A DNA stretch of 64,000 nt from Octopus sinensis (Eukaryota): NCBI RefSeq assembly GCF_006345805.1, contig NC_043010.1:27714001-27778000 (forward strand), read 5' to 3'. This document shows, piece after piece, positions 1,203-53,929 of this stretch. The notes beneath the pieces were generated by a model. That model ran no database searches, was not told the origin of the DNA, and saw only the letters and a list, made by a program, of their open reading frames with translations. The position numbers were made by a program, and so were the translations under genes. Each line of letters begins with the position of its first letter. Position 1 is the stretch's first letter.

Positions 1203-1319
1203 CTCTATGGCGGAGAAGTAGCTGCAAACCTCCTCACATGCTTTGGCCGACTTTTCACTTCCTTCTTACAAAGAGATGGATTTTCATTGGGAATTAAAGA
1301 TATTCTCATGACAAAACAG
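1203..1319 (+). CDS. POLR1A: RNA polymerase I largest subunit, internal exon 1 of 18 in window (gene starts upstream)
   Basis: ttttcag|...|gtcagt; encodes LYGGEVAANLLTCFGRLFTSFLQRDGFSLGIKDILMTKQ, matching the RPA1 motif LYGG..LTC.RLFT..LQ..GF.LG..DIL; 117 nt, phase 0/0. Confidence 0.9.
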
Positions 1320-4039: not shown

Positions 4040-5022
4040 TTAATGTAACATATATGTCCGGTGACTTAGTTTTAAAAATAATAAAGAAAACAAAGTCAAA
4101 GTCTATTTATTTCACATAATTTCAAAATTTCAAGTTCGTTGCGGAGCCTGAAGATATAAATTTTAGAGCTTCAGATTTTAACACAGTTGTTTTTAAAGGA
4201 TTCTTCAAAAGAAAATCAATTCATAACAATGAAAGTAAAAAATAAAATGAGGAACAGCAAATGTGTTATAAATTGATTTTTTTGCCCATTATTCAAAATT
4301 TCATGTGGGCTGCAGAGCCTGGAAAAGTAAATTTAAGACCTTCAGATTTTAACACGGTTGTTTTTAAAGGATTTCGCAATAAAATATATATTCTTGACTA
4401 CATATTTCAAAAATTTGTGTAAAAAAGTATCTTTTTTGCTCCTCTCTCTCTATAAAGTACCTTTTTTTGCTCATATCTCCCCTATAAATATTCACCTACC
4501 ATATATCCTTGAAGAACATTGAACCTTACAAAGCCCCTCTTCCTCCACTGCCACCCCAATCCATTCAATCTCTGACACTTGATATAAAAGAGAAGAAAAA
4601 CAAGCCACTACACTACATTTGCTTATTCAGTTACTGTCTGGTGTTTGTTTCCTGAATAACTTCCTATAGAAAGTGGCTGTAACTTAGATATAACTTTCAC
4701 TTCAATTGAAAAACCCTTCAGTAAAAAATATATTGAATGAGCTGATAATTAGTAAATGTCATCATCATCATAATTCTGGTGCTGGTGTCATAAAAAGCAT
4801 CTTGTACACTCTGTAAAGCAGTTGGTGTTAGAAAGGGCATCCAGCCATAGAAACTGTGCCAAAACAGACAATTTGAACCTGCTGCAGCCCTTGGTCTTAC
4901 CGGCTTTGGTCAAACCATCCAATCCATGCCAGCATGGGAAATAGAGATTAAATGATGATGATAATGTGTGTGTATGTATTTATATGTGTCATCTCACGAA
5001 CATTGCTTATTGACTTTTTTAG

Positions 5023-5222
5023 GCTGATCAGGAACGCAAGAAATTTATTGATTACATCAAAAGCTACGATATTGATAGATCAAGAGAAGAACTGCAAGTA
5101 GTGGTTGGTGAAAGCACCAAGTCTGTTTCTGAAATTGTCTTTGGAAACAATCCGATGCTTGTTGCAGAATTGGACAAGAAGGTGAAGAAAATAACCAACG
5201 AGGTGCAGAACAACTTATTGCG
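5023..5222 (+). CDS. POLR1A: POLR1A exon 2 (funnel region)
   Basis: ttttttag|GCT..CG|gtaaat; ADQERKKFIDY...LVAELDKKVKKITNEVQNNLL; open frame continuous with neighbouring exons. Confidence 0.85.
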
Positions 5223-5338
5223 GTAAATCTTTCCTTTCATTGCAGAATGTTAGGATAAAATTTGTATAAAGCTGTAAGAAATTGTACTTAACTGTTCTCT
5301 CTAATTCTTAACTCTTTCTAAATTCCTTCTCACTTCAG

Positions 5339-5423
5339 AGCCATTATGCCATCTGGTCTGCTTGTCAAATTCCCTGACAATAATCTTCAGTTGATGGTCA
5401 ACGCCGGTGCAAAAGGATCTTCG
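5339..5423 (+). CDS. POLR1A: POLR1A exon 3
   Basis: cttcag|...|gtaagt; (R)AIMPSGLLVKFPDNNLQLMVNAGAKGSS, contains the conserved FP.NN.Q.M...GAKGS motif. Confidence 0.93.
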
Positions 5424-5496
5424 GTAAGTGTCAAATAATGATTGTCACAAAATTGTTAAACCTATATTTCTCTTTTTGACTCTGAAGCTGTTCCCA

Positions 5497-5715
5497 ACAT
5501 TTAGCATTCATTTTATTCTATCAACTGTATTGTTTATTTCACATTGTTTTGAATTGATCATCCATTATTTCATAGCTTTGAGATTTTGTTGATGCAACTG
5601 TTTATCCTTAGAATAACATTGTAGCGTAGGGATGAGAGGCTGGATCTGACCTATTTGCATATGAAACTGATAGGATATTTGGACCAGATATAGCCAGTTT
5701 AAATGTTAAAGGGTT
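5497..5715. mobile_element. piggyBac-type MITE (family B); shorter inverted copy at 22924-23096
   Basis: Ends in aatgttaaagggtta; internal atagctttgagattt and gagaggctggatctgacc are reverse-complement matches to 22924-23096, which is flanked by TTAA. Confidence 0.6.
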
Positions 5716-5869
5716 ACATCGATTTTTTTTCCTTCTAATACGTCTTTCACAGAACTGCAGCCTTGTGTGTGTCTTGTAAGTTCATTTAATGATTCACTGC
5801 ATTCCCATCTATCACCATCTGCCACTTTCCTTTCACATTCTCAGACCTAACCATCCAATGAAGTTTGGA

Positions 5870-6300
5870 CCACCTGAAGAGATATGCTTTATACTTGGAT
5901 TGCAAGAGAATGGTGTCCAGTAGAGTACAACATAGTCAGAATCTTCTATTTTCTGTATCCCAAAACACCAAGAATCTTTGACTTCCTTTCACCGTTCTGT
6001 TAAAACACTGTGAACCATCAAATCTACTTCATCTTTGAGTCAAGTATCATGATGATCTTGCTGAAGATTTCAAGCATCAAGCTCCTCATCATATTTTCCA
6101 TAGCATGAAAATAGGGTGCACAGATGAAATTCATAATGCAGCCTTCATTGACAGACCGATAGATATAAATGGCCAAGGACATCAAAAGTATCCCCACCCC
6201 ACTCCTAACCATATTGAGGTCAATAATTTAGCAACAGAAATTATGGAAGATACATCATATGTTGTCAACATTTTGACTGCATATGCTAATGGCAAATTCA
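5870..6300 (+). pseudogene. Degenerate Helitron Rep-helicase linker fragment
   Basis: LLKHCEPSN..DDLAEDFKHQA then CTDEIHNAAFID..NNLATEIMEDTSY, which aligns with ISNEIYNKTLID..NSLPTAVIRETTY of the Helitron at 15688-16215; stops and frameshifts present. Confidence 0.7.
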
Positions 6301-7580
6301 TTGTGGGAGGCATGGGTTTTTCTATGGTGATAACAATGGAAACATCATTATAGTAAATTGTAGCGTAAAGCAATACATTCTGCTCCTGATCTTAATATTT
6401 GAAGTTATACTCAAAGAAATTTGACCTCCTGCTTAAATTGGGAAAAACAGTTGATAATCAATTTGTAGCTCATGTACATAATTAGAGAAAGAGAGAAATA
6501 AAAAGCCGAAACTCCAGGTAACAAAGCTTTTCAATAATGAATAGGAAGAAGTAGGGCATAATGGATTTAAACAAGATTCGGCATTGTGGTGGCAGCTGAG
6601 AATATCTGATGATAACCACATTCAAAAGAGAGAGTAGAAGGAGATGGTGGACTTATAGACACACATACACACAGCCTCTTTCCATTGGTTATTTCATCAT
6701 GGTGAACCTTTAATCTCTGTACATTTTTTTCTTCATTTTTTTTTCATTCTCTCTCCGTTTTTTCCATTTAACCGTTTCTGTTGAAGAGCTTAAGCTTGAA
6801 ACGTAAAAGAATTCTCCATTCTTCCCAAGCATTAAACTAATACACCAGTTTGTTATTCCTACACCTGTTCCCGTCTTTCATTTTCTGTAAATTTGAATTA
6901 TATATATATATATGTATGTATGTGTGTGTGTACTGGGCTTACAAAAGAATAAGTCCCGGGGTTGAGTTGCTCGATTAAAGGTGGTGCTCCAGCATGGCTG
7001 CAGTCAAATGACTGAAACAAGTAAAAGAGAGAGAGAGTAAAGAGTATATATATAGGGAAAATTCACAAAAAAAGACAAAGACTGATGGTTTAGAGAGCAA
7101 ACAGATGTATTAGTTTAACGTTTGGGAAGTGAAAAAGCCTATAATGTTTTGAGCCTACGTTTTTCCACAGAAAGAAACAGGAAGAGAAAATAAAGATATA
7201 TATACTTATATATATGTTTGTGTGTCTGTGTTTGTCCTTGCAACATTGCCTGACAAGTGATGCTGGTGTGTATATGTCCCCGTAACTTGGCAGTTCAGCA
7301 AAAAGACTGATAGAATAAGTACTAGGCTTACAAAGAATAAGTCCTGGGGTTGGTTTGCTCGACTAAAGGCGGTGTTCCAGCATGGCCACTGTCGAATAAC
7401 TGAAACAAATAAAAGAACAAAAGAAATATATATATATATATACATGCACACAGTTTGTATATATATTTAGTTTGTATTCCTGGTTGTGCTTATTTCAATT
7501 TGCTTACGCCGTTAACTCCTATGGTACCTACTATTCCATTTGCTTTCCTCTCTTATCTTAATATAATTTCATCTTTTCAG

Positions 7581-7781
7581 GTGAACGCTATGCAAATGTC
7601 CTGTCTTCTGGGCCAGATTGAATTGGAAGGACGAAGACCACCAATGATGCCAAGTGGACGTTTCTTGCCATCATTTCTACAGTATGACATTTCTCCCAAG
7701 GCTGGTGGCTTCATTACTGGCCGTTTCACAACAGGAATTTCACCTCAGGAATACTTTGTCCATTGTATGGCCGGCAGAGAG
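7581..7781 (+). CDS. POLR1A: POLR1A exon 4
   Basis: tttcag|...|gtgagt; [21 protein letters not shown]...[25 protein letters not shown], Pol I-type [10 protein letters not shown] motif. Confidence 0.96.
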
Positions 7782-8027
7782 GTGAGTGTAAAAGAGCCAG
7801 TGTAATCACTAATGTAATCATCATCATCAAACGTCTGTTTTCCATGCTGCCATGGGTTGGACAGGCTGACGGATGCTGGCAAGCTGGAGAGCTGCACCAG
7901 ACTCCAGTCTGATTTGGCATGGCTTCTCCATCTAGATGCCCTTCCTAATGCCAACCACCTTATAAGAGTGTCCTTGGTGCTTTTTACATCATAAATTAGC
8001 AAGGATTAAAAAAAGGAAAATGCTTAA

Positions 8028-8239
8028 CCCTTTCGTTACCAACCCAGCTGAAACCACCTCTGGCTCTGGGTACAAATGTCTTGTTTTCAAAAGTCCTGAA
8101 TTAAAATCTTCCACCAAACCTTAGTCGTAATTTATGTTCCTAACACTAGTTTAATGATAACTAAGTTATTTTACTAAATTCTTTGTTATTGAAGTAATTG
8201 AACACAGAGCATCTCAAAATAAATACAGTAACGAAAGGG
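8028..8239 (+). mobile_element. piggyBac-type MITE (family A)
   Basis: TTAA|CCCTTTCGTTAC ... GTAACGAAAGGG|TTAA, same TIR as the 2637-3721 element; a partial copy lies near 62430-62570. Confidence 0.88.
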
Positions 8240-8338
8240 TTAAATAAATTTGACTTTTCTTTGTAAATTGTAATTTCTCTTCGTGTGTGTGTGTTACTTC
8301 TGTCAAGCCATGTGTTCCTTCCATTTTCTCTTCCTTAG

Positions 8339-8467
8339 GGTCTCATTGACACCACTGTAAAAACCAGTCATTCGGGATACCTTCAACGTTGCTTAGTTAA
8401 GCATTTAGAGAGCCTCATCGTTAATTATGACCTCACAGTCAGAGACAGTGACGGCAGTGTTATTCAG
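8339..8467 (+). CDS. POLR1A: POLR1A exon 5 (bridge helix)
   Basis: ccttag|...|gtaaga; [43 protein letters not shown], equivalent to the Pol I bridge helix GL.DTAVKTSRSGYLQRC. Confidence 0.96.
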
Positions 8468-9710
8468 GTAAGACTCATTCTATTCTCTGTCTGTTTCACT
8501 CTTGTAGAATTTCTTCTGGGGTAGAGATGGGTGGGAAAAATGTTCAGAAATTAATTTTTATATCTAGTACCCATCTTTCTAGTATTAGATGTTTGTTAGG
8601 TAAGAGCTTGAGCATTGCAGAATGGTTTACTCCCTAATCTTGAGGTTCTGGGTTATATCACATCACATGGCCCTTTCAGCAAGCATTTTCAACTATTGCT
8701 ACTTTGAGTCAACCCAAGCCTGGGAAGAAATTAGGTGGGTAGGAGGCTTGTGGAAATATTTTGCTGCAGATATTGAATCTCTTAACCCATATTTGCCCAT
8801 AAAAAAATGAAGTCTTAAAATTCCACTGTATTTAAATTAAACTTCGAAGTTTCAGCCACCTAAACCATTATTGGAGGATAATGGCTTAGCTGTCTGAAAT
8901 TTCAAAGTCACTGTGTGTTTTCCCAGTTTGCAGGAAAATGGCTAAAAATTTGCCCTGTTTATAATTATACCATATGTTACATATTTATTATATCATACTT
9001 TGATACTGTTTGGACTAAGATCCCCATTGACAAGCTGCTGGTGTTTATAGAGTGTTAAACACTTGGTATGCAAATTAGGGACACTTTCATAGAGTAACTG
9101 CTGCATTTGCTGGGTATATAAACAGTTTGGCTGCTTGTCTCTTTGGAGATTGTGAAAGTGATGTGTACGCCAATAATGAGAACCCAATATGGTTCGAAAA
9201 TCGATGAAGGTTGTTCATCATTTTTTAAGTCTGCAGAGAAATGGCTAAAATTTGCCCTGTTTACAATTATATCATAGGTTACGTATTCTTTTACTTGTTT
9301 CAGTCATTTGACTGTGACCATGCTGGAGCACCGCCTTTAGTCGAGCAAATTGACCCCAGAGCCTATTCTTTGTAAGCCTAGTACTTATTCTATCGATCTC
9401 TTTTGCCAAACCCTCTAAAGATACGGGGACATAAACACACCAGCATCGGTTGTCAAGCGATGTTGGGGGGGGGGACAAACACAGACACACAAACATATAC
9501 ACACACATATATATATATACATATATGATGGGCTTCTTCCAGTTTCTTTCTACCAAATCCACTCACAAGGATTTGGTCGGCCCGAGGCTATAGTAGAAGA
9601 CACTTGCCCAAGGTGACACGCAGTGGGACTAAACCCATGACCATGTGGTTGGTAAGCAAGCTCCTTACCACACAGCTACTCCCCTGATGCCCTTCGTTAT
9701 GCCAACCACT

Positions 9711-10069: not shown

Positions 10070-10228
10070 TTTTATTATGGTGAAGACAGCCTGGATGTAA
10101 CCAAGACTCAGTTTATTAATGAGAATCACTTCCCAATGTTGATCAAGAACCGTGCTTCCATCTTAAACCAAAAGATGCCTCTTAAAGAAGCTGACAGCAA
10201 CTTCAACTGTCGTCAGATACAAAACAAA
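10070..10228 (+). CDS. POLR1A: POLR1A exon 6
   Basis: cttcag|...|gtaaga; FYYGEDSLDVTKTQF...QIQNK (F.YGEDGLD..KTQF motif). Confidence 0.92.
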
Positions 10229-11354
10229 GTAAGATTTATTTTTTGTGTTTGGATTTGTTTTATTATGTTTGATTTTTTTTTATTCTGAATGTGCTTGCAG
10301 CATTTATCAGGTCCAGTCATCATCATCATCATACGTCTGTTTTCCATGCTGGCATGGGTTGGACAGTTTGACTGAGGTCTGGAGAGCCAGCGGCTGCACC
10401 AGGTTCCAGTTTGATCTGGCAATGTTTCTACAGCTGGATGCCCTTCGTAATGCCAACTACTCCAAGAGTGTAGTGGGTGCTTTTTACGTGCCACTGGCAC
10501 AGGAACCAGTCAGGTTGGCCTGGCATCAATCATGTTCAGAGAGTGCTTTTTATGTGCCACCAGCATGGGGGCCAGTCAGTGGGTACTGTCATCAGCCACG
10601 TTCAGTTGGTGCTTTTTATGTACCAGCATAATAATGCTGTAAAAAAAACCAATATGTTCTGTAAAGTAGTTGGCTTTAAGAAGGGGTTCTGGCTGTAGAA
10701 ACTCTCCCAAAGCAGGCATCAGAGTGTGACAGTCCTTTGGTTTATTGGAAACAGTGACACTGTCTAATTCATGCCTGCATGGAAAATGGATGTTAAACAA
10801 TAATGATGATATGAGTGCAGGCATGGTTTTGTAGCCACGAAGGTTGCTTCCAAACCACTTGGCTTCACGTTCTGTCCCTCTTCATGGCACTTTGAGCTAG
10901 TGTCTTCTACTACAGCTCCAACCTGACCAAAGCCTTGTGAGTGGATTTGGTACTCAGAAACTGAAAGAAGCCTCTTTGTGTGTGTGTGTGTGTGTATTGA
11001 CATGCATGGAAGTTTGTAATGTTTATTTCTCTACACCTTTTTCCTGACACTTTTAGGGCAACAGAAATGTTGTGTACATGTGCAAACACTTTATCTTACA
11101 GTTTGGCAATTTCAACATTTAATTGCTTGTGGAATGAAAAAGAATTCACATTGTTTGGAAAATGTGTTGGCAACAGGAAGGGTACCCCATCTTAGAATAC
11201 TACCTCATCAAGTCTTGTTCAACCCATGACAGCAAGGAAAAGAACAAACAAGTGTAAAAGCAATGATAATAGCATGCTTTAAATATCCTCCCGCCATTTC
11301 TCATCTGTCATTGTTGTTATGTTAAAAATATTTATTGTTGTTCTTTTTCTTCAG

Positions 11355-11548
11355 ATTTATAAATCCAGGCAAGAGTCTGGCTCCGTCCCAAAGTATTCGG
11401 CTGACAGAAGTGCATTCTTGAGATTCTGCAAGAAAAAACAGGAAGACCTTGAAGTGCCAGACAACATTTCTTGTATGACTGGACGTTCTTTGAAAAGCAC
11501 CTACCTGTGCAGTCTGTGGCACAACATGAGTGAGAAACGGCGCCAAAA
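11355..11548 (+). CDS. POLR1A: POLR1A exon 7
   Basis: cttcag|...|gtaagt; IYKSRQ...RSAFLRFC...GRS...LCSLWHNMSEKRRQ; phase 2 end matches the next exon. Confidence 0.85.
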
Positions 11549-12877: not shown

Positions 12878-13007
12878 GTATCAGAAGAAGGTTATATCTT
12901 GTCCAGATCCTGTTTTGTCTAAGACTTGGCCATATACTCAGCAAGGTGCCATCTCTGAAGAAATATACAAAATGGCAAAGAATTTCTGTTCCAAGTCTGA
13001 AAATTCA
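12878..13007 (+). CDS. POLR1A: POLR1A exon 8
   Basis: tgtcag|G..TCA|gttagt; (K)YQKKVISCPDPVLSKTWPY..GAISE (KYQKK...CPDP motif); donor chosen by phase. Confidence 0.82.
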
Positions 13008-16215: not shown

Positions 16216-17315
16216 GTCAGGATAGAGCAGTTGAGCTTGGCGCTGAAGGGGACAATGTTTTTGAGATTCCGGTTCGAATGTAAGGCAGGTTTGAAAGTGT
16301 TCCCAACAGTTATTAATTGTAGTGGTAGAGTGTTTATGCCGAATATGTATGTATGCATGTATATATATGTATGCTTGTATATATGTACAAAATCCACTGA
16401 GAAGGCTTTTGTTGGTCTGAGGCTACAGCAGAAGACACATGCCAAGTCACCACACAGTGGAACTGAACCCAGGACCATGTGTTTGGAACGTAGTTTGTTA
16501 CCACACAGCCACACCTGCCCCTATGTTTGTGTGTGTGCATATGTGTATATGGGTAGATATATTATGCATGTATATCATCATCGTTTAACGTCCGTTTTCC
16601 GCGCTAGCACGGGTTGGACGGTTTCGACCGGGGTCTGGGGAGCCAGGGGCTGCCCCAGGCTCCAGTCTGGTCTGGCAGTGTTTCTACAGCTGGATGCCCT
16701 TCCTAACGCCAACCACTCCGCGAGTGTAGTGGGTGCTTTTTACGTGCCACCTGCACAGGTGCCAGAGGGGTCTGGCATCGGCCACGGTCAGTTGGTGCTT
16801 TTTATGTGCCACCTGCACAGAAGCCAGTCGGGGCGGTGCTGGCATCGGCCACGCTCGGATGGTGCTTTTTATGTGGGGGGGGGGGGGTGCAGAAATATAG
16901 GGGAGCACCAGTGGGGAGGGGTGTTCGGAGAAACGATGACAGGTTCTAGACAAGTAGAACGTAGGATATCACTAGAGGGGTAATGCATGGTGAAATAGCG
17001 TATTGAAGAGGGGGGTTCGAAGAGTAGACACCTATAATGGTGGTGGGAGAAGCGACATCCGGTATAGATGGAGCAAAAATATAAAGATATCCGGTATTGG
17101 TGGTGGGGGTGGGCAAGGGCGTTTGCACCGCGAATACGCGAAGGTTGAAAGACGAGAGAGTGAGGACTTGGACGGGCAAAATTAATAAAGGGACGGTGGA
17201 GAAATGGAGAAATTATCGGCACATAATGATGAGAGGAATTAGGGAATACAATGACAACTGCTTAAGCGTATTAGTAATTAGTAAGTAGATAAAATAGATA
17301 GATAGATAAAAACAT

Positions 17316-20376: not shown

Positions 20377-20511
20377 CACAGGATATGCCCACCAGGACAA
20401 GCTGAGACTAAAGAGACTCTTACGGAAGAAAACTTTGAGAAACTGATAAATTACAAATATCTACAATGTATGGTGGACCCTGGAGAAGCTGTTGGCTTAA
20501 TTTCATCTCAG
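20377..20511 (+). CDS. POLR1A: POLR1A exon 9
   Basis: tattag|...|gtactt; HRICPPG...FEKLINYKYLQCMVDPGEAVGLISSQ (PGEAVG motif preceding the trigger helix). Confidence 0.88.
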
Positions 20512-21322: not shown

Positions 21323-23122
21323 AAGATATTGGTGTGTTTACGCCTTCATAACTTAGTGGTTCAGCAAAAGAGACCCATAGAATAAGTCAAGTTGCTCATC
21401 TAAAAGCGGTGCTCCAGCATGACCACAGTCAAATGAATAAAAGAATATCTATAATCTTCACTGGAAACGGTTATCAGGCGTACAATATGTTCTCCTTGTC
21501 ATTGTTAACAGATTTCTTTTCTACGATCTTCTGCTATTTGTCAGAAAGAACTCAAATGCCATCCAGCTTCTGTCTTTTACTATTTTATTAATGATTAAAG
21601 TCTTTCTCTGCTACTCTTTATGGCTTCATCACTGAGACTCGTCTTTTCTACTCTTTTACTTGTTTCAGTCATTTGACTGTGGCCATGCTGGGGTACTACC
21701 TTTAGTCGAGCAAATTGACCCCAGGACTTATTCTTTTTAAGTCTGGTATTTATTCTATGGGGGCGTAAACACACCACTATTAGTTGTCAGGTGATTTTGG
21801 GGGGACAAACACAGACACACAAACACACACACACACATATATACAACAGGCTTCTTTTGGTTTCCATCTACCAAATCCACTCACAAGGCTTTGATCAGCC
21901 TAAGGCTATAGTAGAAGACACTTGCCCAAGGTTGCATGCAGTGGGACTGAACCTGGAACAATGTGGCTAGTAAGCAAGCTACTTACCACACAGCCACTCC
22001 TACACCACTGTACGCATCATCATCATCATCATCATCAACATCATTGCTTTAACATCCAATTTTGCATATCTGCATGGATCAGATGGATTTTATTGTAGCA
22101 GGTTTTCTATGGTTGGATGCCGTTTGCGTTGCCAAACTTTGCCTGCTGCCAGGTGAGGAGATATTTTCCTATGGCCAGACATAGCATCATGGAAGAATGA
22201 GGGAAAAAAATATTAATGACACTTGTTTCCAATTATCACACACACCATGCTACCATAGAGTTTCATCTTCATCACCGTTTAACGTCCGTTCTCCATGCAG
22301 GCATGGGTTGAACGGTTTGACTGAGGTCTGGAAAGCCAGTTGCTGCAGCAGGCTCCAATCTGATCTGGCAATGTTTCTACAGCTGGATGCCCTTCCTAAT
22401 GCCAACCACTCCGAGAGTATAGTGGATGCTTTTTACAAGCCACCAGCATTGGAGCCAGTCAGGGAAACACTGGCATCGGCCACGTTCAGATGGTACTTTT
22501 TACTTGCCATTGGCACAGGAACCAGTCAGAGTGCACTGGCATTGGCCACATTCGGATGATGCTTTTAACGTGTCACTGGCACAGTAGCCAGTCAGGGAGC
22601 ACTGGCATCGGTCACATTCAGATGGTGATTTTAACGTACCACCAACAAGAGAGCCAGTCAGGCAGACCTAGTATTGATCACGTTCGGGTGGGGGTTAATT
22701 TGCCACTGGCATTGGTCATGTTCAGATGGTACTTTTTACATATCACCAGCACAGGAGCCAGTCAGGGGCACTGGCATCGACCACATTCAGACGATGCAAA
22801 GACATAGGTCTGATCAGGGTGATAGTAGAAGACATTTTCCCAAGATGCCTAGCAATGGGACTGAACCTGAAATGTCTGTATTGTTGGGAAGTAAACTTCC
22901 TAACCAAACAGCCATTCCCATATTTAACCCATGAGCGTTTAAACTGGTCAGATCTGGCCTCTCCCACCTAGTCTACAATGTCAATGTAAAAACTAACAGT
23001 TACCTCGTCAAAATCTCAAAGCTACAAGATAATGCCTCATTAATTTAAAATAATGTAAATAAAGTTTGACAGAGTAATCTGAATACTAAATGGTTAATTA
23101 GCTAATTAATTAATTTTTTCAG

Positions 23123-23344
23123 TCAATTGGTGAGCCATCAACTCAGATGACACTGAACACATTCCACTTTGCTGGTCTTGGAGAGATGAACGTCACTCTG
23201 GGTATTCCTCGTCTCCGTGAGATTCTCTTCGGTTCCAAAAATATGAAGATTCCTACAATGGACATTCCTGTCTTAGACACAAACTTTGCCAGGGCTGAAG
23301 CCAAAAAGCTGCAGATGAAGTTAAACCCTGTTACACTCAGCCAG
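23123..23344 (+). CDS. POLR1A: POLR1A exon 10 (trigger loop)
   Basis: ttttcag|...|gtaaat; [35 protein letters not shown]; the [15 protein letters not shown] form is Pol I type. Confidence 0.97.
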
Positions 23345-29303: not shown

Positions 29304-29471
29304 ATTTAACGATCGGTTGTACATAGTCCGTTTACAGTTCCTACCTCAATGCAAATACCAAGACCAGTTGGCAACAAATCCAGACGATATCCTTCGCCAC
29401 GTGGAATTGAAATACATCACTGGTTTGCTGAAATCCATCAAATCAACAATCAAGTTCACACAGGCCTCGTT
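29304..29471 (+). CDS. POLR1A: POLR1A exon 12 (jaw)
   Basis: cattag|...|gtgagt; FNDRLYIVRLQFLP...ILRHVELKYITGLLKSIK; phase 2/2. Confidence 0.85.
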
Positions 29472-33343: not shown

Positions 33344-33720
33344 ACGGATTCTTCCCAAGGACATTGTTCATACTATAAAAGTTACGCTGACTGATTCGGC
33401 TGAACCATCTGCTAACAAGGAGCAAGATGGAGAAAGTGTTGGGGAGGAGGAAGAGGAGCCTGCTGCCAATGCCGAGAGGGGAGACGAGTCTGAAGACTCC
33501 ACATCCAGTGGAGAAGACGAGATGGATGCAGTTGATGGCAAACAGAAGAAGCAGACAAGTGATGAACATGACTACAATGATGATGATGACGATGATGATG
33601 ACGACGACGACGATGATGATGACGATGATGATGACAATGATGATGATGAGGACAGTGACAGTGAGACGGAAACAAAGAAGGAGAGTAATACGACCGAAAT
33701 TATGGAAGATGAGGACGAAG
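33344..33720 (+). CDS. POLR1A: POLR1A exon 13 (acidic expander/DNA-mimicking loop region)
   Basis: tcacag|...|gtctgt; acidic segment with EDEMDAVDGKQKKQTSDEHDY followed by 19 consecutive Asp; phase 2/1 fits both neighbours. Confidence 0.82.
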
Positions 33721-35990: not shown

Positions 35991-36071
35991 TACCTAGAGT
36001 CATTCAATGAGGCTATATTGTCATATAGTTACGACGAAGAAAAGAGTCTTTGGTGTGAAGTAGTATTCAAG
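35991..36071 (+). CDS. POLR1A: POLR1A exon 15
   Basis: ttgcag|...|gtaaga; YLESFNEAILSYSYDEEKSLWCEVVFK (Y.YD....LWC.V motif). Confidence 0.88.
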
Positions 36072-37160: not shown

Positions 37161-37313
37161 TTTAATTTAAGATTAACTAAGGTTGATCTGATGACCATCA
37201 TCAAAAACAATGCTGAGACATCCATTATACATAGAGTGCCTGGAATCAAACGTTCCATCTTAACAAGCGTCAAAAATGAACTCCATCTGCAGACGGAAGG
37301 AATTCACATCAGC
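37161..37313 (+). CDS. POLR1A: POLR1A exon 16
   Basis: ttacag|...|gtaagt; FNLRLTKVDLMTII...IHRVPGIKRSIL...LQTEGIHIS (PGI.R and L.TEG motifs). Confidence 0.9.
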
Positions 37314-38300: not shown

Positions 38301-38411
38301 TACATTCAGCAGTTTCCTAATATTCTTGACATCAATCGCATCTACTGCAACAGTCCAACAATCATGGCACAGGTCTATGGGATAGAAGCTGGGCTAAAGG
38401 TCATCATCAAG
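38301..38411 (+). CDS. POLR1A: POLR1A exon 17
   Basis: ttgcag|...|gtgagt; YIQQFPNILDINRIYCNSPTIMAQVYGIEAGLKVIIK (LD..R.Y.N...YGIEA motif). Confidence 0.92.
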
Positions 38412-40054: not shown

Positions 40055-40357
40055 GAAATCCAATCTGTCTTTGGAGTTTATGGCATCAAAGTGAATTACC
40101 GACATTTGTCTCTCATCGCAGACTATATGGCATTTGAAGGTCAATTGACCTTTTTCAATCAAAAAGGCATGCAAGCGTGTCCGTCCCCATTACAATTGAT
40201 CACTTTTGAGTCAGCTTACCGCGGCATAGCAAATGCTGCATCTCAACATTTGAAAGACTATTTAAATTCTCCTACCTCTCAGTTAGTTACAGGTAAACTA
40301 CCCTCGTTCGGCACTGGACACTTTGACATACTTTTACCCCTGATACCTGTTAAATAA
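40055..40357 (+). CDS. POLR1A: POLR1A terminal coding exon 18
   Basis: tttcag|EIQSVFGVYGIKVNYRHLSLIADYMAFEG...SPLQLITFE...D.L.SP...LV.GK....GTGHFD...stop TAA at 40355-40357. Confidence 0.95.
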   Translation, partial: EIQSVFGVYGIKVNYRHLSLIADYMAFEGQLTFFNQKGMQACPSPLQLITFESAYRGIANAASQHLKDYLNSPTSQLVTGKLPSFGTGHFDILLPLIPVK

Positions 40358-46463: not shown

Positions 46464-47066
46464 TGGCATATTACCAGCCAATGTACGCCACTAACCCAGA
46501 AGGAATATAAGAGATGCAACGACAAAATAGCCAGGCTTGTCCATTGGACACTTTACAATAAGTATGGACTTGACAGAGCAAAAAATTGGTACGACCACAA
46601 ACTGAAGGCATCGTCGAAAATGGAAATGCAAAGATCCTATGGGATTTTATGATTCAGTGCGACCATGAGATAGAGAATAGGAAGCCAGACATAGTCTTAA
46701 TTGAGAAAGGAAACAAACAATGCTGGATCATAGATATAGCATGCCCAGCTGATAACAAGGTATGCGATAAAGAAGAAAGAAAAGTTGATAGATATGACAG
46801 GTTAGCTTGGGAGGTTAAAGGAGTTGTGGTCGATGAAAAGGTGGTAGAAGTACCAATAATTGTCGGAGCCCTTGGAACAGTGAGCAAAAACCTCGAGAAG
46901 TATGTGGAACAAATAGGGGCTGCAATAAGGGTGGAGCTCTTGCACTGCTTGAAACCGCTCGAATACTCCGGAAGATGCTCGAAAAATAAAGGTTGTTACC
47001 TTAGTTCACTGGTAGTGAACAGCTGACACCGTAGTACATCTCCAGCGTTAGAAACCGTGCAAAGGC
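46464..47066 (+). mobile_element. 3' fragment of an R4/Dong-type non-LTR retrotransposon (restriction-like endonuclease)
   Basis: HITSQC..YKR..D..ARLVHW; KILWDFMIQCDHEIENRKPDIV..IIDIACP..KE..K..Y..VPIIVGALG; flanked on both sides by (TAA)n. Confidence 0.88.
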
Positions 47067-51574: not shown

Positions 51575-53241
51575 GGAAGCTTTATGAAAATAAACAAAAG
51601 ACGAAGGCAGGTGGAAAACAAACGAACAATTGTATTAGTATGGCGCTCAGGAAATATAAATAAAACAAGTCTTTAACGTTTCGAGCCTACGCTCTTCAAC
51701 AGAAAGAGAAAAACACAGAAAGAAGGAGAGAAAAAAAATGCGTGCAGTAGCTAACGAATCAACATGGCGATCTGATTTCGGCCAGAGGTCAAAGATCAAA
51801 CATGAGACGCGAGAGCGAAATAAGGGGAGATAATAGGGTTGATAAAAGGGTTGAGGGACCAGCTAAAAGTGCGTGGGAGGGGTCTGGATGTGTGTATGTA
51901 TAGGGTTGGTGTATGTATTAGTATGTATAAGGGTGTGTGTGTGTGTGTGTATGAGAGAGTATTAGTGCGTAGGATTGGTCTGGACGTGCGTATGTATGGG
52001 GTTGGTGTATGTATTAGTATGTATTAGTATGTATTAGTACGTATTGGTATGTATAGGTGTGTGTGTGTGTGAGAGAGTATAAGTGCGTATGCGGGGTCTG
52101 GACGTGTGTATGTATAGGGTTGGTGTAAGTATTAGTATGTACTAGTATGTATTAGTACGTATTAGTATGTATTAGTTGGTGTGTGTATTAGTATGGCACA
52201 TCATATGTGATGTGATGTGTAAAGTCATGTGGTGTAGTGAGGAGAAGAGGGGGAGGGGGAGAAGAGGGGTAGAGAAGGGGAGGGGAAGAAGAGGGGGAGG
52301 AGAAGGGGGAAGAGGAGAGGATGGGGGAGAAGGAAGGGGAGAGAGGGAGCAGAGGGAAGGGGAAGAGGGAGGGAGAAAGAGGGAAGAAGGGAAGGGGAGT
52401 AGGGGTGAAAGGATGAAGGACTGAAGAAGTAGGGGTCGGGGGGAGAAAGGATAGGTGAGGAGGGGGGAGGGGGGTTAGATGAGGAGGGGGGAGAGTTGAG
52501 ACCAAATGGCGTATAAGAGCGAAGAGAGAAGATTAATTCCTGTTCACGGCGCAAACGGGAATCCGGATGGCCTCTGTGTAAGGACAAACCGAACACAGAT
52601 AGGTGTTGCAAGGAGTGACCGGTGGAGCGGAAATGGCGTGAGACCGGTGTGTCGTTCGCAAGGTGGATGTCACGAAGGTGTTCCGCGAACCGGTCAGCCA
52701 AGCGGCGTCCCGTTTGTCCGATGTACAAGGAATTGCAGAGAGAGCAAGAGATGCAATAGATAATATTGCTGGAGGTGCAGGTGAAGGAGTGGATGATGGG
52801 ATAGGGTCGATGGTGGGTGCTAGTGAGGCGGGTGGTGTTGGAGAGGTAAGGGCAAGTGCAGCAACGTGGGCGGGAGCAGGGGAACGAGCCGGGTTGGGAG
52901 GTAGGGTCAGGGAAGGAGCTATGGACCAAAAGGTCTCGAAGGTTGTGGGCTCGTTTGAAAGAGGGGAAGGGTCGGTTAGGGAAGAGGTGTGAAGTGGACG
53001 GGTCGGACTGGAGATGACGGAAAGCTCGAAGAATGGTGCGTTGGAGACGTAGGGTCGTGGGGTGGTAAGTGAGGGGAAAAGGGAGGCGGGAGACTACAGG
53101 GCGGGTTCGGGGAGAGAGAGCAGATACACGGTCCACGGACCGTGCTCTGGCAAGGGTGGTGTGGATAGTGGTGAGGGGGTATCCACGTAGGGTGAAGTGG
53201 TGAGCCATACGTTGAGACTGAGTCTCAAAGTCATGGTCGTC
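51575..53241 (-). mobile_element. 5'-truncated Penelope-like retroelement (RT thumb plus GIY-YIG endonuclease plus 3' pseudo-LTR)
   Basis: F..RGYP, PLTYHP, FKRAHNLRDLLVHS, PC.RPRC.TC, FTCTSSNIIYCISCSLC..LYIGQTGRRL.DRF.EH, RE..LI..L....P.GLN; pLTR at ~51575-51830 contains a hammerhead motif; truncated at (TA)n. Confidence 0.92.
51671..51706 (-). ncRNA. Hammerhead-like motif in the Penelope pseudo-LTR (CUGUUGA variant)
   Basis: Minus strand CTTT-CTGTTGA-A-GAGC(GTAG)GCTC-GAAAC-GTT-AAAG; related copies at 6774-6809(+), 7139-7174(-), 42504-42539(-), 51346-51381(+). Confidence 0.55.
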
Positions 53242-53242
53242 A

Positions 53243-53274
<32 letters not shown>

Positions 53275-53929
53275 GCGCGTGAAGGCCTTTTTGTTTGAGT
53301 AGGCAAAACAGGCAGTGGGCACTACCTACCGTGACTAAATCTATAAATATTAATTATCAATTATAGAAAATAAATGATTTTTAATGCATTATAAAAAATG
53401 CTAATTTAATGCATGAAATTCAGTATAGAATTCGGTAAATGACTGCCATTTTGATGTTAGAATGGCACAATTTCCGATGCTTTCATCTTTAATGTTTATA
53501 TTAATGCTAATGAAATTAATCCCACGTGCCACGTTTGAAGACGAAGAAAGGAGTTATCATAGCGTCACGGAGACAGGAATCAAACTATCTCCGCGCTCAG
53601 AGAGAGAGAGAGAGAGAGGGAGAAAGAGAAAGAAAGAGAGAGAGAGAGAGAGAGAGACTGTGTGTGTGTTTGTGTTTTGCATGACGTGTTTGTTTTATCA
53701 GCAATGGTTCAGTTAACTCTAAAGGATATTATTATTGTATGTGTGTATAAAATAGCAATAATGAACGTGTGTGGGTGGGTGGGTAGGTGTCGGGGGGGGG
53801 GGGTATGTCTATGTGTACATAGAATGGTTTATGCAATGCATACATACATGTATATATACAATACAATAATGCTTGTTTGTTTACAAGCGTATGTACAATT
53901 CTTGAAAAACTATTCCGAAACATGTGTTT

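What the first reader, a model, noticed from the sequence alone, without database searches (positions are those of the whole stretch)
8339..8467. Pol I bridge helix carries three substitutions that A-to-I editing would each reverse
Seen: the exon encodes [25 protein letters not shown]. Established, recalled from yeast and human RPA1: the consensus is DT-A-VKTS-R-SGYLQRC..K.LE-G. The DTA alanine is conserved through Pol II and bacterial beta-prime, and the Arg is the Pol I-specific bridge-helix residue (yeast A190 R1015). All three deviant codons are one A-to-G change from consensus: ACT>GCT (A8354), CAT>CGT (A8370), AGC>GGC (A8411). Coleoid cephalopods recode mRNAs extensively with ADAR. Inference: the genome may encode a non-consensus Pol I active-centre helix that is restored, or tuned by tissue or temperature, through RNA editing. 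That would put rRNA synthesis under editing control. Caveat: two of the three sites are also CpG-deamination products, so these could simply be fixed mutations.
Basis: partly seen in the sequence, partly recalled or inferred. Interest (0 to 1): 0.9.

Follow-up and report, generated by a model that had tools for sequence, protein, structure and literature searches.

The report
Diverged mollusc Pol I bridge helix
The animal's intact gene for the largest RNA polymerase I subunit has two rare amino-acid changes in its active-centre helix; these are most likely ordinary fixed mutations in a fast-changing protein, and repair by RNA editing is neither shown nor ruled out.

Summary
The letters are as described. 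Exon 8339-8467 of an intact POLR1A (RPA1) gene encodes Thr, His and Ser, each one A-to-G from Ala, Arg and Gly. Only two are real anomalies. Among 84 non-redundant RPA1 proteins Ala is 99% and Arg 95% (His none), but Ser at the third site is a natural state (7% there; aphids, a mite, a bug). The gene is fast-evolving: 16 departures in 287 conserved columns, against a median of 4. A-to-G-restorable changes are not enriched (3 of 11 lineage-specific departures; 9 of 59 overall), apart from a mild tilt at the most conserved columns (3 of 5). Both real sites, and a further Arg-to-Gln site at 40161, are former CpGs. No editing-type duplex was found. Published rates of editing at restorable sites in octopus are about 1% or less. 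The Arg position varies in nature and tolerates substitution in archaeal polymerase. The direct RNA test failed for technical reasons, so editing is untested. Verdict: fixed lineage-specific substitutions most likely (0.8); restorative editing about 0.12-0.15.

The parts
8339..8467 (+). POLR1A/RPA1 bridge-helix exon (129 nt, phase 0/0, AG..GT)
   Evidence: best PDB matches are Pol I RPA1, E 8e-18; Pfam RNA_pol_Rpb1_5
8354..8356 (+). ACT Thr at the yeast A190 A1010 position (Ala in 99% of 84 RPA1); ancestral GCT follows a C, so a former CpG
8369..8371 (+). CAT His at the yeast A190 R1015 position (Arg 95% of 84; His 0 of 340); ancestral CGT is a CpG
8411..8413 (+). AGC Ser at a Gly/Ser-variable position; 5' neighbour G; not a true anomaly
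1203..1319 (+). POLR1A exon (first in the window; 14 more exons lie upstream, start codon about 35.3 kb before the window, in L009-L012)
5023..5222 (+). POLR1A exon
5339..5423 (+). POLR1A exon
7581..7781 (+). POLR1A exon just before the bridge helix; carries Phe-to-Val and Ile-to-Met departures shared with P0135 that editing could not restore
10070..10228 (+). POLR1A exon
11355..11548 (+). POLR1A exon
12878..13007 (+). POLR1A exon
20377..20511 (+). POLR1A exon
23123..23344 (+). POLR1A trigger-loop exon; Leu where most RPA1 have Arg (a variable position), Phe for Met at 23228, Ile for Thr at 23249; none A-to-G-restorable
29304..29471 (+). POLR1A exon (phase mismatch with the previous exon: a small exon probably missed)
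33344..33684 (+). POLR1A acidic jaw-insertion (expander-region) exon; 3' boundary uncertain
35991..36071 (+). POLR1A exon
37161..37313 (+). POLR1A exon
38301..38411 (+). POLR1A exon
40055..40357 (+). POLR1A last coding exon with stop; holds CAA Gln at 40160-40162 where 96% have Arg (A-to-G-restorable at 40161, former CpG) and three other departures that are not restorable

Best explanation
Thr, His and Ser are genomically fixed, lineage-specific substitutions in the only host POLR1A copy found, and the enzyme works with them. Shown: the gene is intact and sits on a long-branched mollusc clade; it departs from consensus at many conserved positions by all kinds of change. Inferred: the Ala-to-Thr and Arg-to-His changes arose as G-to-A transitions at methylated CpGs in a housekeeping gene body. 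Also inferred: they were tolerated because the Arg position faces away from the catalytic site and mainly binds the inhibitory DNA-mimicking loop in inactive Pol I, and because nearby trigger-loop and funnel residues had also drifted. Any editing at these adenosines would be low-level background.
For: Intact gene: 30 exons, no internal stop in 1596 codons, catalytic aspartate motif present. One host copy: protein and DNA searches find only this exon, apart from a co-assembled foreign contig. Tree: host plus P0135/P0277 form a long-branch clade inside molluscs, SH-aLRT 100 (quick tree). Divergence: 16 departures in 287 columns of 90% or more conservation, against a median of 4 for the 84 comparison proteins (counted leave-in, so biased low) and 8 for P0135. 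Of the 11 specific to this lineage, 3 are A-to-G-restorable; at 50% or more conservation, 9 of 59. These shares fit mutation alone: P(3 or more of 11) is 0.09-0.77 over five assumed weightings. All three highly conserved restorable sites follow a C, so are former CpGs; coding CpG o/e is 0.52 against GpC 0.87. Octopus gene bodies of constitutive genes are methylated (PMC9476566, passages). No duplex: folding z is 0.13, 0.62 and -0.03, and the best partners within 3 kb (-25.8, -25.2, -24.9) are weaker than the median of 30 control adenosines (-28.25). The Arg position shows N9, K2, T2, V1 among 340 RPA1, Lys in one bivalve. Its archaeal equivalent Q823 points away from the catalytic centre and can be mutated to higher activity (PMC2776397, passages and section 5; the equivalence is my count from the conserved Thr). 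R1015 binds the DNA-mimicking loop in inactive Pol I (PMC5179497, passage), and deleting that loop gives only a mild phenotype (PMC6104688, passage). Published share of restorable sites that are edited in O. bimaculoides: 0.6-1.0% in neural tissue, 0.03-0.2% elsewhere; under 1% of edited restorative sites in octopus exceed 80% (PMC6881472 supplement 1; possibly pre-correction figures). The letters are real: 19 public runs in 7 studies hold 10 of 10 sampled words of the exon (one study may be the source).
Against: No direct RNA measurement at the three sites was obtained. His at this position is unique among 340 RPA1, and Thr is seen in one other cluster only; two such changes five residues apart is unusual. 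At columns of 95% or more conservation, 3 of 5 lineage-specific departures are A-to-G-restorable: P is 0.009 with equal rates, 0.03 with twofold transitions and 0.10-0.21 with GC-to-AT and CpG bias (weights assumed, not measured). Restorative editing is enriched among strong sites in coleoids (PMC8382921, passages), so highly conserved positions have a higher prior than the average rate. Window-wide CpG o/e is also low (0.56), so the depletion is not specific to this gene. The genome encodes adenosine-deaminase-family proteins. No data on the tolerance of Thr at the Ala position were found.
Confidence: 0.8

Rival explanations
1. Partial restorative (harm-permitting) A-to-I editing: ADAR edits 8354 and/or 8370 in some transcripts, mainly in neural tissue, so cells make both forms of RPA1.
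For: The sites are A-to-G-restorable and Ala/Arg are near-invariant. 3 of 5 lineage-specific departures at the most conserved columns are of this type. The closest relatives and 21 named molluscs lack Thr/His. Restorative sites are over-represented among strong edits in coleoids (PMC8382921, PMC8249491). A_deamin-family genes are present.
Against: No gene-wide excess of restorable changes (9 of 59). No duplex beyond shuffles or controls. The 5' neighbours are C, C and G, where ADAR prefers U or A and avoids G (recalled). Published base rate is about 1% or less. His codons CAT are among the less often edited: 270 edited sites against 17262 codons in O. vulgaris, though the two tables may not share a denominator.
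Confidence: 0.12
2. Obligate, near-complete editing restores the consensus helix in all tissues, as for the GluA2 Q/R site, putting rRNA synthesis under ADAR control.
For: It would explain why an essential active-centre helix looks non-consensus.
Against: Pol I is needed in every growing cell, while editing of restorable sites is lowest in ovary, testis, viscera and skin (0.03-0.08%). Under 1% of restorative sites in octopus reach 80%. Eight other lineage-specific departures at conserved columns cannot be restored by editing. There is no duplex. A conditional hint only: 14 of the 19 runs that hold all 10 genomic words are guessed to be RNA, and 10 random words would miss site 8370 with probability 0.02; but their kind is a guess and the list is ranked by best holder.
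Confidence: 0.03
3. The letters are assembly errors, or the locus is a decaying duplicate with a canonical copy elsewhere.
For: Three phase mismatches remain in my exon model; the assembly may be incomplete.
Against: The mismatches lie in variable regions, and there is no internal stop in 1596 codons. No second host copy was found. The exact words occur in runs of 7 studies and 3 organism labels.
Confidence: 0.02
4. Fixed, but co-adapted rather than merely tolerated: Thr and His changed together with trigger-loop and funnel residues and alter Pol I speed or its inactive (expander-bound) state. This is compatible with the best explanation and concerns why the changes were kept.
For: Departures cluster round the active centre: Asn-to-Thr after the catalytic motif and Phe-to-Val before the helix (both shared with P0135), and Met-to-Phe and Thr-to-Ile after the trigger loop. 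Bridge-helix and trigger-loop base substitutions modulate activity in archaeal polymerase.
Against: No functional data. Six of the 84 comparison proteins depart at more conserved columns than this one, so drift on a long branch suffices.
Confidence: 0.25

Closest known systems
RNA polymerase I largest subunit (POLR1A / RPA1 / yeast A190)
   Same: Same gene: exon order, catalytic motif, bridge helix, trigger loop and acidic jaw insertion; best structural matches are Pol I chains.
   Different: Thr at A1010 and His at R1015 (His 0 of 340), plus 14 other departures at conserved columns.
P0135 cluster (10 unnamed proteins from transcript-length Logan contigs, two groups at about 91% identity)
   Same: Sister group in the tree; shares the N-terminus and several derived residues near the active site.
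   Different: All 10 read Ala, Arg, Gly at the three sites. Whether that is their genomic or an edited state cannot be told from contigs; genomic is the simpler reading.
Restorative (harm-permitting) A-to-I recoding in coleoids (Jiang and Zhang 2019; Shoshan et al. 2021)
   Same: The sites meet the definition of potential restorative sites: a genomic A whose editing would give the ancestral residue.
   Different: No editing is shown; only about 1% or fewer of potential sites are edited.
GluA2 Q/R obligate recoding (recalled)
   Same: The model for a genome-encoded defect corrected by near-complete editing.
   Different: It relies on a strong intronic complementary sequence; none was found here within 3 kb.

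Membership tests
POLR1A/RPA1 | Rpb1-type domains, with best similarity to Pol I rather than Pol II or III | tested here: met
   Pfam Rpb1_2, _4, _5; PDB ranks Pol I first; separate Pol II-like and Pol III-like exons lie on C9 and C7
POLR1A/RPA1 | Intact reading frame with catalytic aspartate motif | tested here: met
   30 exons, no internal stop, motif present; 3 phase mismatches in variable regions remain
POLR1A/RPA1 | Pol I-specific bridge-helix Arg (yeast R1015) | tested here: not met
   His here; 14 of 340 other RPA1 proteins also lack the Arg, so it is typical rather than required
Restorative A-to-I recoding site | Genomic A whose change to G restores the ancestral residue | tested here: met
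   8354, 8370, 8411; sister group and molluscs have Ala, Arg, Gly
Restorative A-to-I recoding site | A/G mixture in RNA with pure A in DNA of the same animal | tested here: inconclusive
   Only contigs were on offer and the one lay gave no usable result at the sites
Restorative A-to-I recoding site | Double-stranded RNA round the site | tested here: not met
   Folding z 0.13, 0.62, -0.03; partners within 3 kb weaker than the control median. Imperfect or distant duplexes could be missed.
Restorative A-to-I recoding site | Favourable neighbours (5' U/A, 3' G; recalled) | tested here: not met
   Contexts C-A-C, C-A-T, G-A-G
Restorative A-to-I recoding site | ADAR-type enzyme in the genome | tested here: met
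   A_deamin matches over the cut-off on several contigs, best E 6e-64; ADAR and ADAT not told apart
Restorative A-to-I recoding site | Listed in published coleoid editing-site tables | not testable with these tools
   Site-level tables not held

The most novel reading that the evidence does not exclude
One or both of the bridge-helix adenosines at 8354 and 8370 (and perhaps 40161) are substantially edited in some tissues or temperatures. Pol I would then exist in Thr/His and Ala/Arg forms, and editing would tune the R1015 contact that holds the enzyme in its inactive, expander-bound state.
Probability: 0.12. Interest if true: 0.75.

Novelty: new member of a known kind. Interest (0 to 1): 0.22.

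Why it matters
If fixed (likely), this is a natural Pol I with His at the Pol I-specific Arg and Thr at a near-invariant Ala. That is a modest but useful natural test of how much the bridge helix tolerates and of what R1015 is for. If edited (about 1 in 8), it would be recoding of a core housekeeping polymerase active centre, linking ADAR to ribosome production. One look at existing raw RNA reads would settle it.

Tried and rejected
RNA test: no RNA holder listed on record. I laid contigs of 4 of the 24 listed runs on 4900-9600 at 80% likeness and 1% share. X3, X6 and X20 showed no depth over the bridge-helix exon bins, and X10 showed depth about 1 over 8354-8667, running into the intron. Intronic repeats filled the tables (563 difference rows hidden), and the tool filters human-like contigs. 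This is no evidence either way; a narrower stretch and stricter likeness would have been a better use of the single call.

Octopod relatives: three protein searches and one profile-library search listed no protein from this lineage and no named cephalopod, so the changes could not be dated among octopuses. The Atlas gave only generic Rpb1 domain 5 clusters.

Literature: no paper held 'cephalopod', 'RNA editing' and 'POLR1A' together; 'octopus, RNA polymerase I, RNA editing' and 'cephalopod, RPA1, editing' gave nothing relevant by title or abstract. Supplements searched for RPA1/POLR1A gave 0 hits but held no site-level tables that I could see. The two Cell papers with octopus editing tables (2017, 2023; recalled) were not held. 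Activity values for the archaeal Ala position were not found; 9 of 21 supplementary files were not searched.

Other: missing small exons were not found by tblastn in six gaps. No clear expander motif could be aligned. Earlier scan notes held nothing. Rejected readings: a second canonical paralog (the other hit, C9300, is a foreign compact gene); a pseudogene; the third site as an anomaly. The careful tree did not finish; the quick tree is quoted.

Full report
Observation. The exon at 8339-8467 (+) is bounded by AG and GT. It encodes Thr (ACT, 8354), His (CAT, 8369-8371) and Ser (AGC, 8411), each one A-to-G change from Ala, Arg and Gly. The best solved-structure matches are Pol I largest subunits; by yeast numbering the first two positions are A190 A1010 and R1015. 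R1015 is described as a Pol I-specific arginine that binds the DNA-mimicking loop in inactive Pol I (PMC5179497, passages seen).

How unusual is each residue? In 84 non-redundant full-length RPA1 proteins (kept from 153 candidates) Ala is 99%, Arg 95% and Gly 86%; Thr is 1%, His 0% and Ser 7%. Among the 340 of 403 stored proteins that held the motif, Thr occurs 6 times (one cluster), His never and Ser 64 times; the Arg position also shows Asn 9, Lys 2, Thr 2 and Val 1. These sets were gathered by similarity to the query, which inflates Ser (54 of 119 in the first set). Of 21 named non-cephalopod mollusc proteins, 20 read Ala/Arg/Gly and one Ala/Lys/Gly; six named arthropod proteins, picked as examples, read Ala/Arg/Ser. 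So two sites are real anomalies and the third is an ordinary variant.

The gene. With 100 kb fetched upstream I modelled 30 exons, from a start codon about 35.3 kb before the window to a stop at 40355-40357. There is no internal stop in 1596 codons and the catalytic motif is intact; three phase mismatches in variable regions probably mark missed small exons. Protein and DNA searches found no second host copy. The other RPA1 hit, on C9300, is a compact foreign gene with tiny introns. The closest relative is an unnamed cluster of 10 proteins from transcript-length contigs (P0135), all reading Ala/Arg/Gly. In a quick tree of 29 proteins the host and this cluster form a long-branched clade inside molluscs, beside gastropods plus bivalves. 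That the host is an octopus-type cephalopod is my inference from this placement and the 2.7 Gb genome; no call named it. The exon's letters are real: 19 of 24 listed public runs, in 7 studies and 3 organism labels, hold 10 of 10 sampled words (one study may be the source).

Is the A-to-G pattern special? At 287 columns conserved in 90% or more, the host departs at 16, P0135 at 8 and the median comparison protein at 4 (counted leave-in); six comparison proteins depart at more. At 50% or more conservation, 9 of 59 are restorable. With five assumed mutation weightings the expected G-to-A share is 0.10-0.33, so 3 of 11 (P 0.09-0.77) and 9 of 59 (P 0.13-1.0) are unremarkable. Against my reading: at 95% or more conservation, 3 of 5 lineage-specific departures are restorable (P 0.009 with equal rates, 0.03 with twofold transitions, 0.10-0.21 with GC-to-AT and CpG bias). 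All three follow a C, so each is a former CpG. Coding CpG o/e is 0.52 against GpC 0.87, though the whole window is also low at 0.56. Constitutive gene bodies are methylated in O. bimaculoides (PMC9476566, passages).

Does it look like an ADAR substrate? The pre-mRNA, the spliced context and the exon fold no better than shuffles (z 0.13, 0.62, -0.03). The best partners within 3 kb (-25.8, -25.2, -24.9 kcal/mol) are weaker than the median of 30 control adenosines (-28.25; range -39.0 to -24.1). The long inverted repeats nearby pair intron with intron. The neighbours are C-A-C, C-A-T and G-A-G; ADAR's preference for 5' U/A and avoidance of 5' G is recalled. A_deamin-family genes are present.

Base rates. 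Restorative editing is a known class in coleoids and is over-represented among strong sites (PMC8382921, passages and part 1 of 7 of the supplement; PMC6881472, passages and supplement 1; correction PMC8249491, part 1 of 2). But only 0.6-1.0% of potential restorative sites are edited in neural tissues of O. bimaculoides and 0.03-0.2% in others, and under 1% of edited restorative sites in octopus exceed 80% (these may be pre-correction figures). A near-invariant position deserves a higher prior than the average, but Pol I is needed in all growing tissue.

Can the enzyme tolerate the changes? Counting from the conserved Thr that contacts the incoming nucleotide (yeast T1013, PMC12144180, one passage; archaeal T821), R1015 equals archaeal Q823. 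Q823 points away from the catalytic centre and gives superactive mutants (PMC2776397, passages and section 5; PMC3270539, one passage). Deleting the loop that R1015 binds gives a mild growth phenotype (PMC6104688, passages), and the loop is poorly conserved and weakly bound in human Pol I (PMC8660638, passages). I found no data for Thr at the Ala position; it does occur in one other RPA1 cluster.

What was not settled. No RNA measurement at the sites was obtained, and the site-level editing tables were out of reach (see Tried and rejected). PMC4384741 and PMC9068888 were seen only as search listings and supplement searches; supplements I could not see may list this gene. A claim that this has not been described rests only.

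Verdict. This is an intact, fast-evolving RPA1 with two rare bridge-helix substitutions, most likely fixed CpG transitions (0.8). Partial restorative editing is about 0.12, obligate editing 0.03 and artefact 0.02. Interest is 0.22; it would be about 0.75 if editing were shown, and counting raw RNA reads at four positions would decide.

Noticed in passing
window 40160-40162: A further A-to-G-restorable departure at a near-invariant position: CAA Gln where 96% of 84 RPA1 and P0135 have Arg; also a former CpG. Worth counting in the same RNA test.
   Followed up: partly
window 23123-23344 and 7581-7781; L009 2173-2310: Other active-centre departures that editing cannot restore: Leu in the trigger loop where 194 of 261 stored RPA1 have Arg (Tyr in the P0135 cluster), Met-to-Phe, Thr-to-Ile, Phe-to-Val, and Asn-to-Thr right after the catalytic motif (Asn in all 84).
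   Followed up: partly
G000 C9300 (L002, L004), C9002 (L006), C8318 (L007): Contigs of a co-assembled foreign eukaryote with compact RPA1, RPB1-like and RPC1-like genes and introns of about 24 nt. Tiny introns in a cephalopod assembly suggest a dicyemid parasite (recalled, not tested). Its RPA1 has Gln at the R1015 position. C2502, C8702 and C12622 hold similarly interrupted A_deamin matches.
   Followed up: partly
window 52225-53325 (-): 366-codon open frame with a weak GIY-YIG match (E 0.0036, under the Pfam cut-off); looks like the end of a Penelope-type retroelement (recalled).
   Followed up: partly
window 46574-47026 (+): 150-codon frame resembling the restriction-like endonuclease end of a non-LTR retrotransposon (recalled); no Pfam match.
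   Followed up: no
window 6944-7417 with 9286-9519: Inverted copies of a dispersed repeat (118 nt at 87%, 85 nt at 86%) in the introns on either side of exons 7581-7781 and 8339-8467; they could pair in pre-mRNA across both exons.
   Followed up: no
window 10477-10625, 16732-16875, 22425-22662: Recurring 66-67 nt tandem unit in several introns.
   Followed up: no
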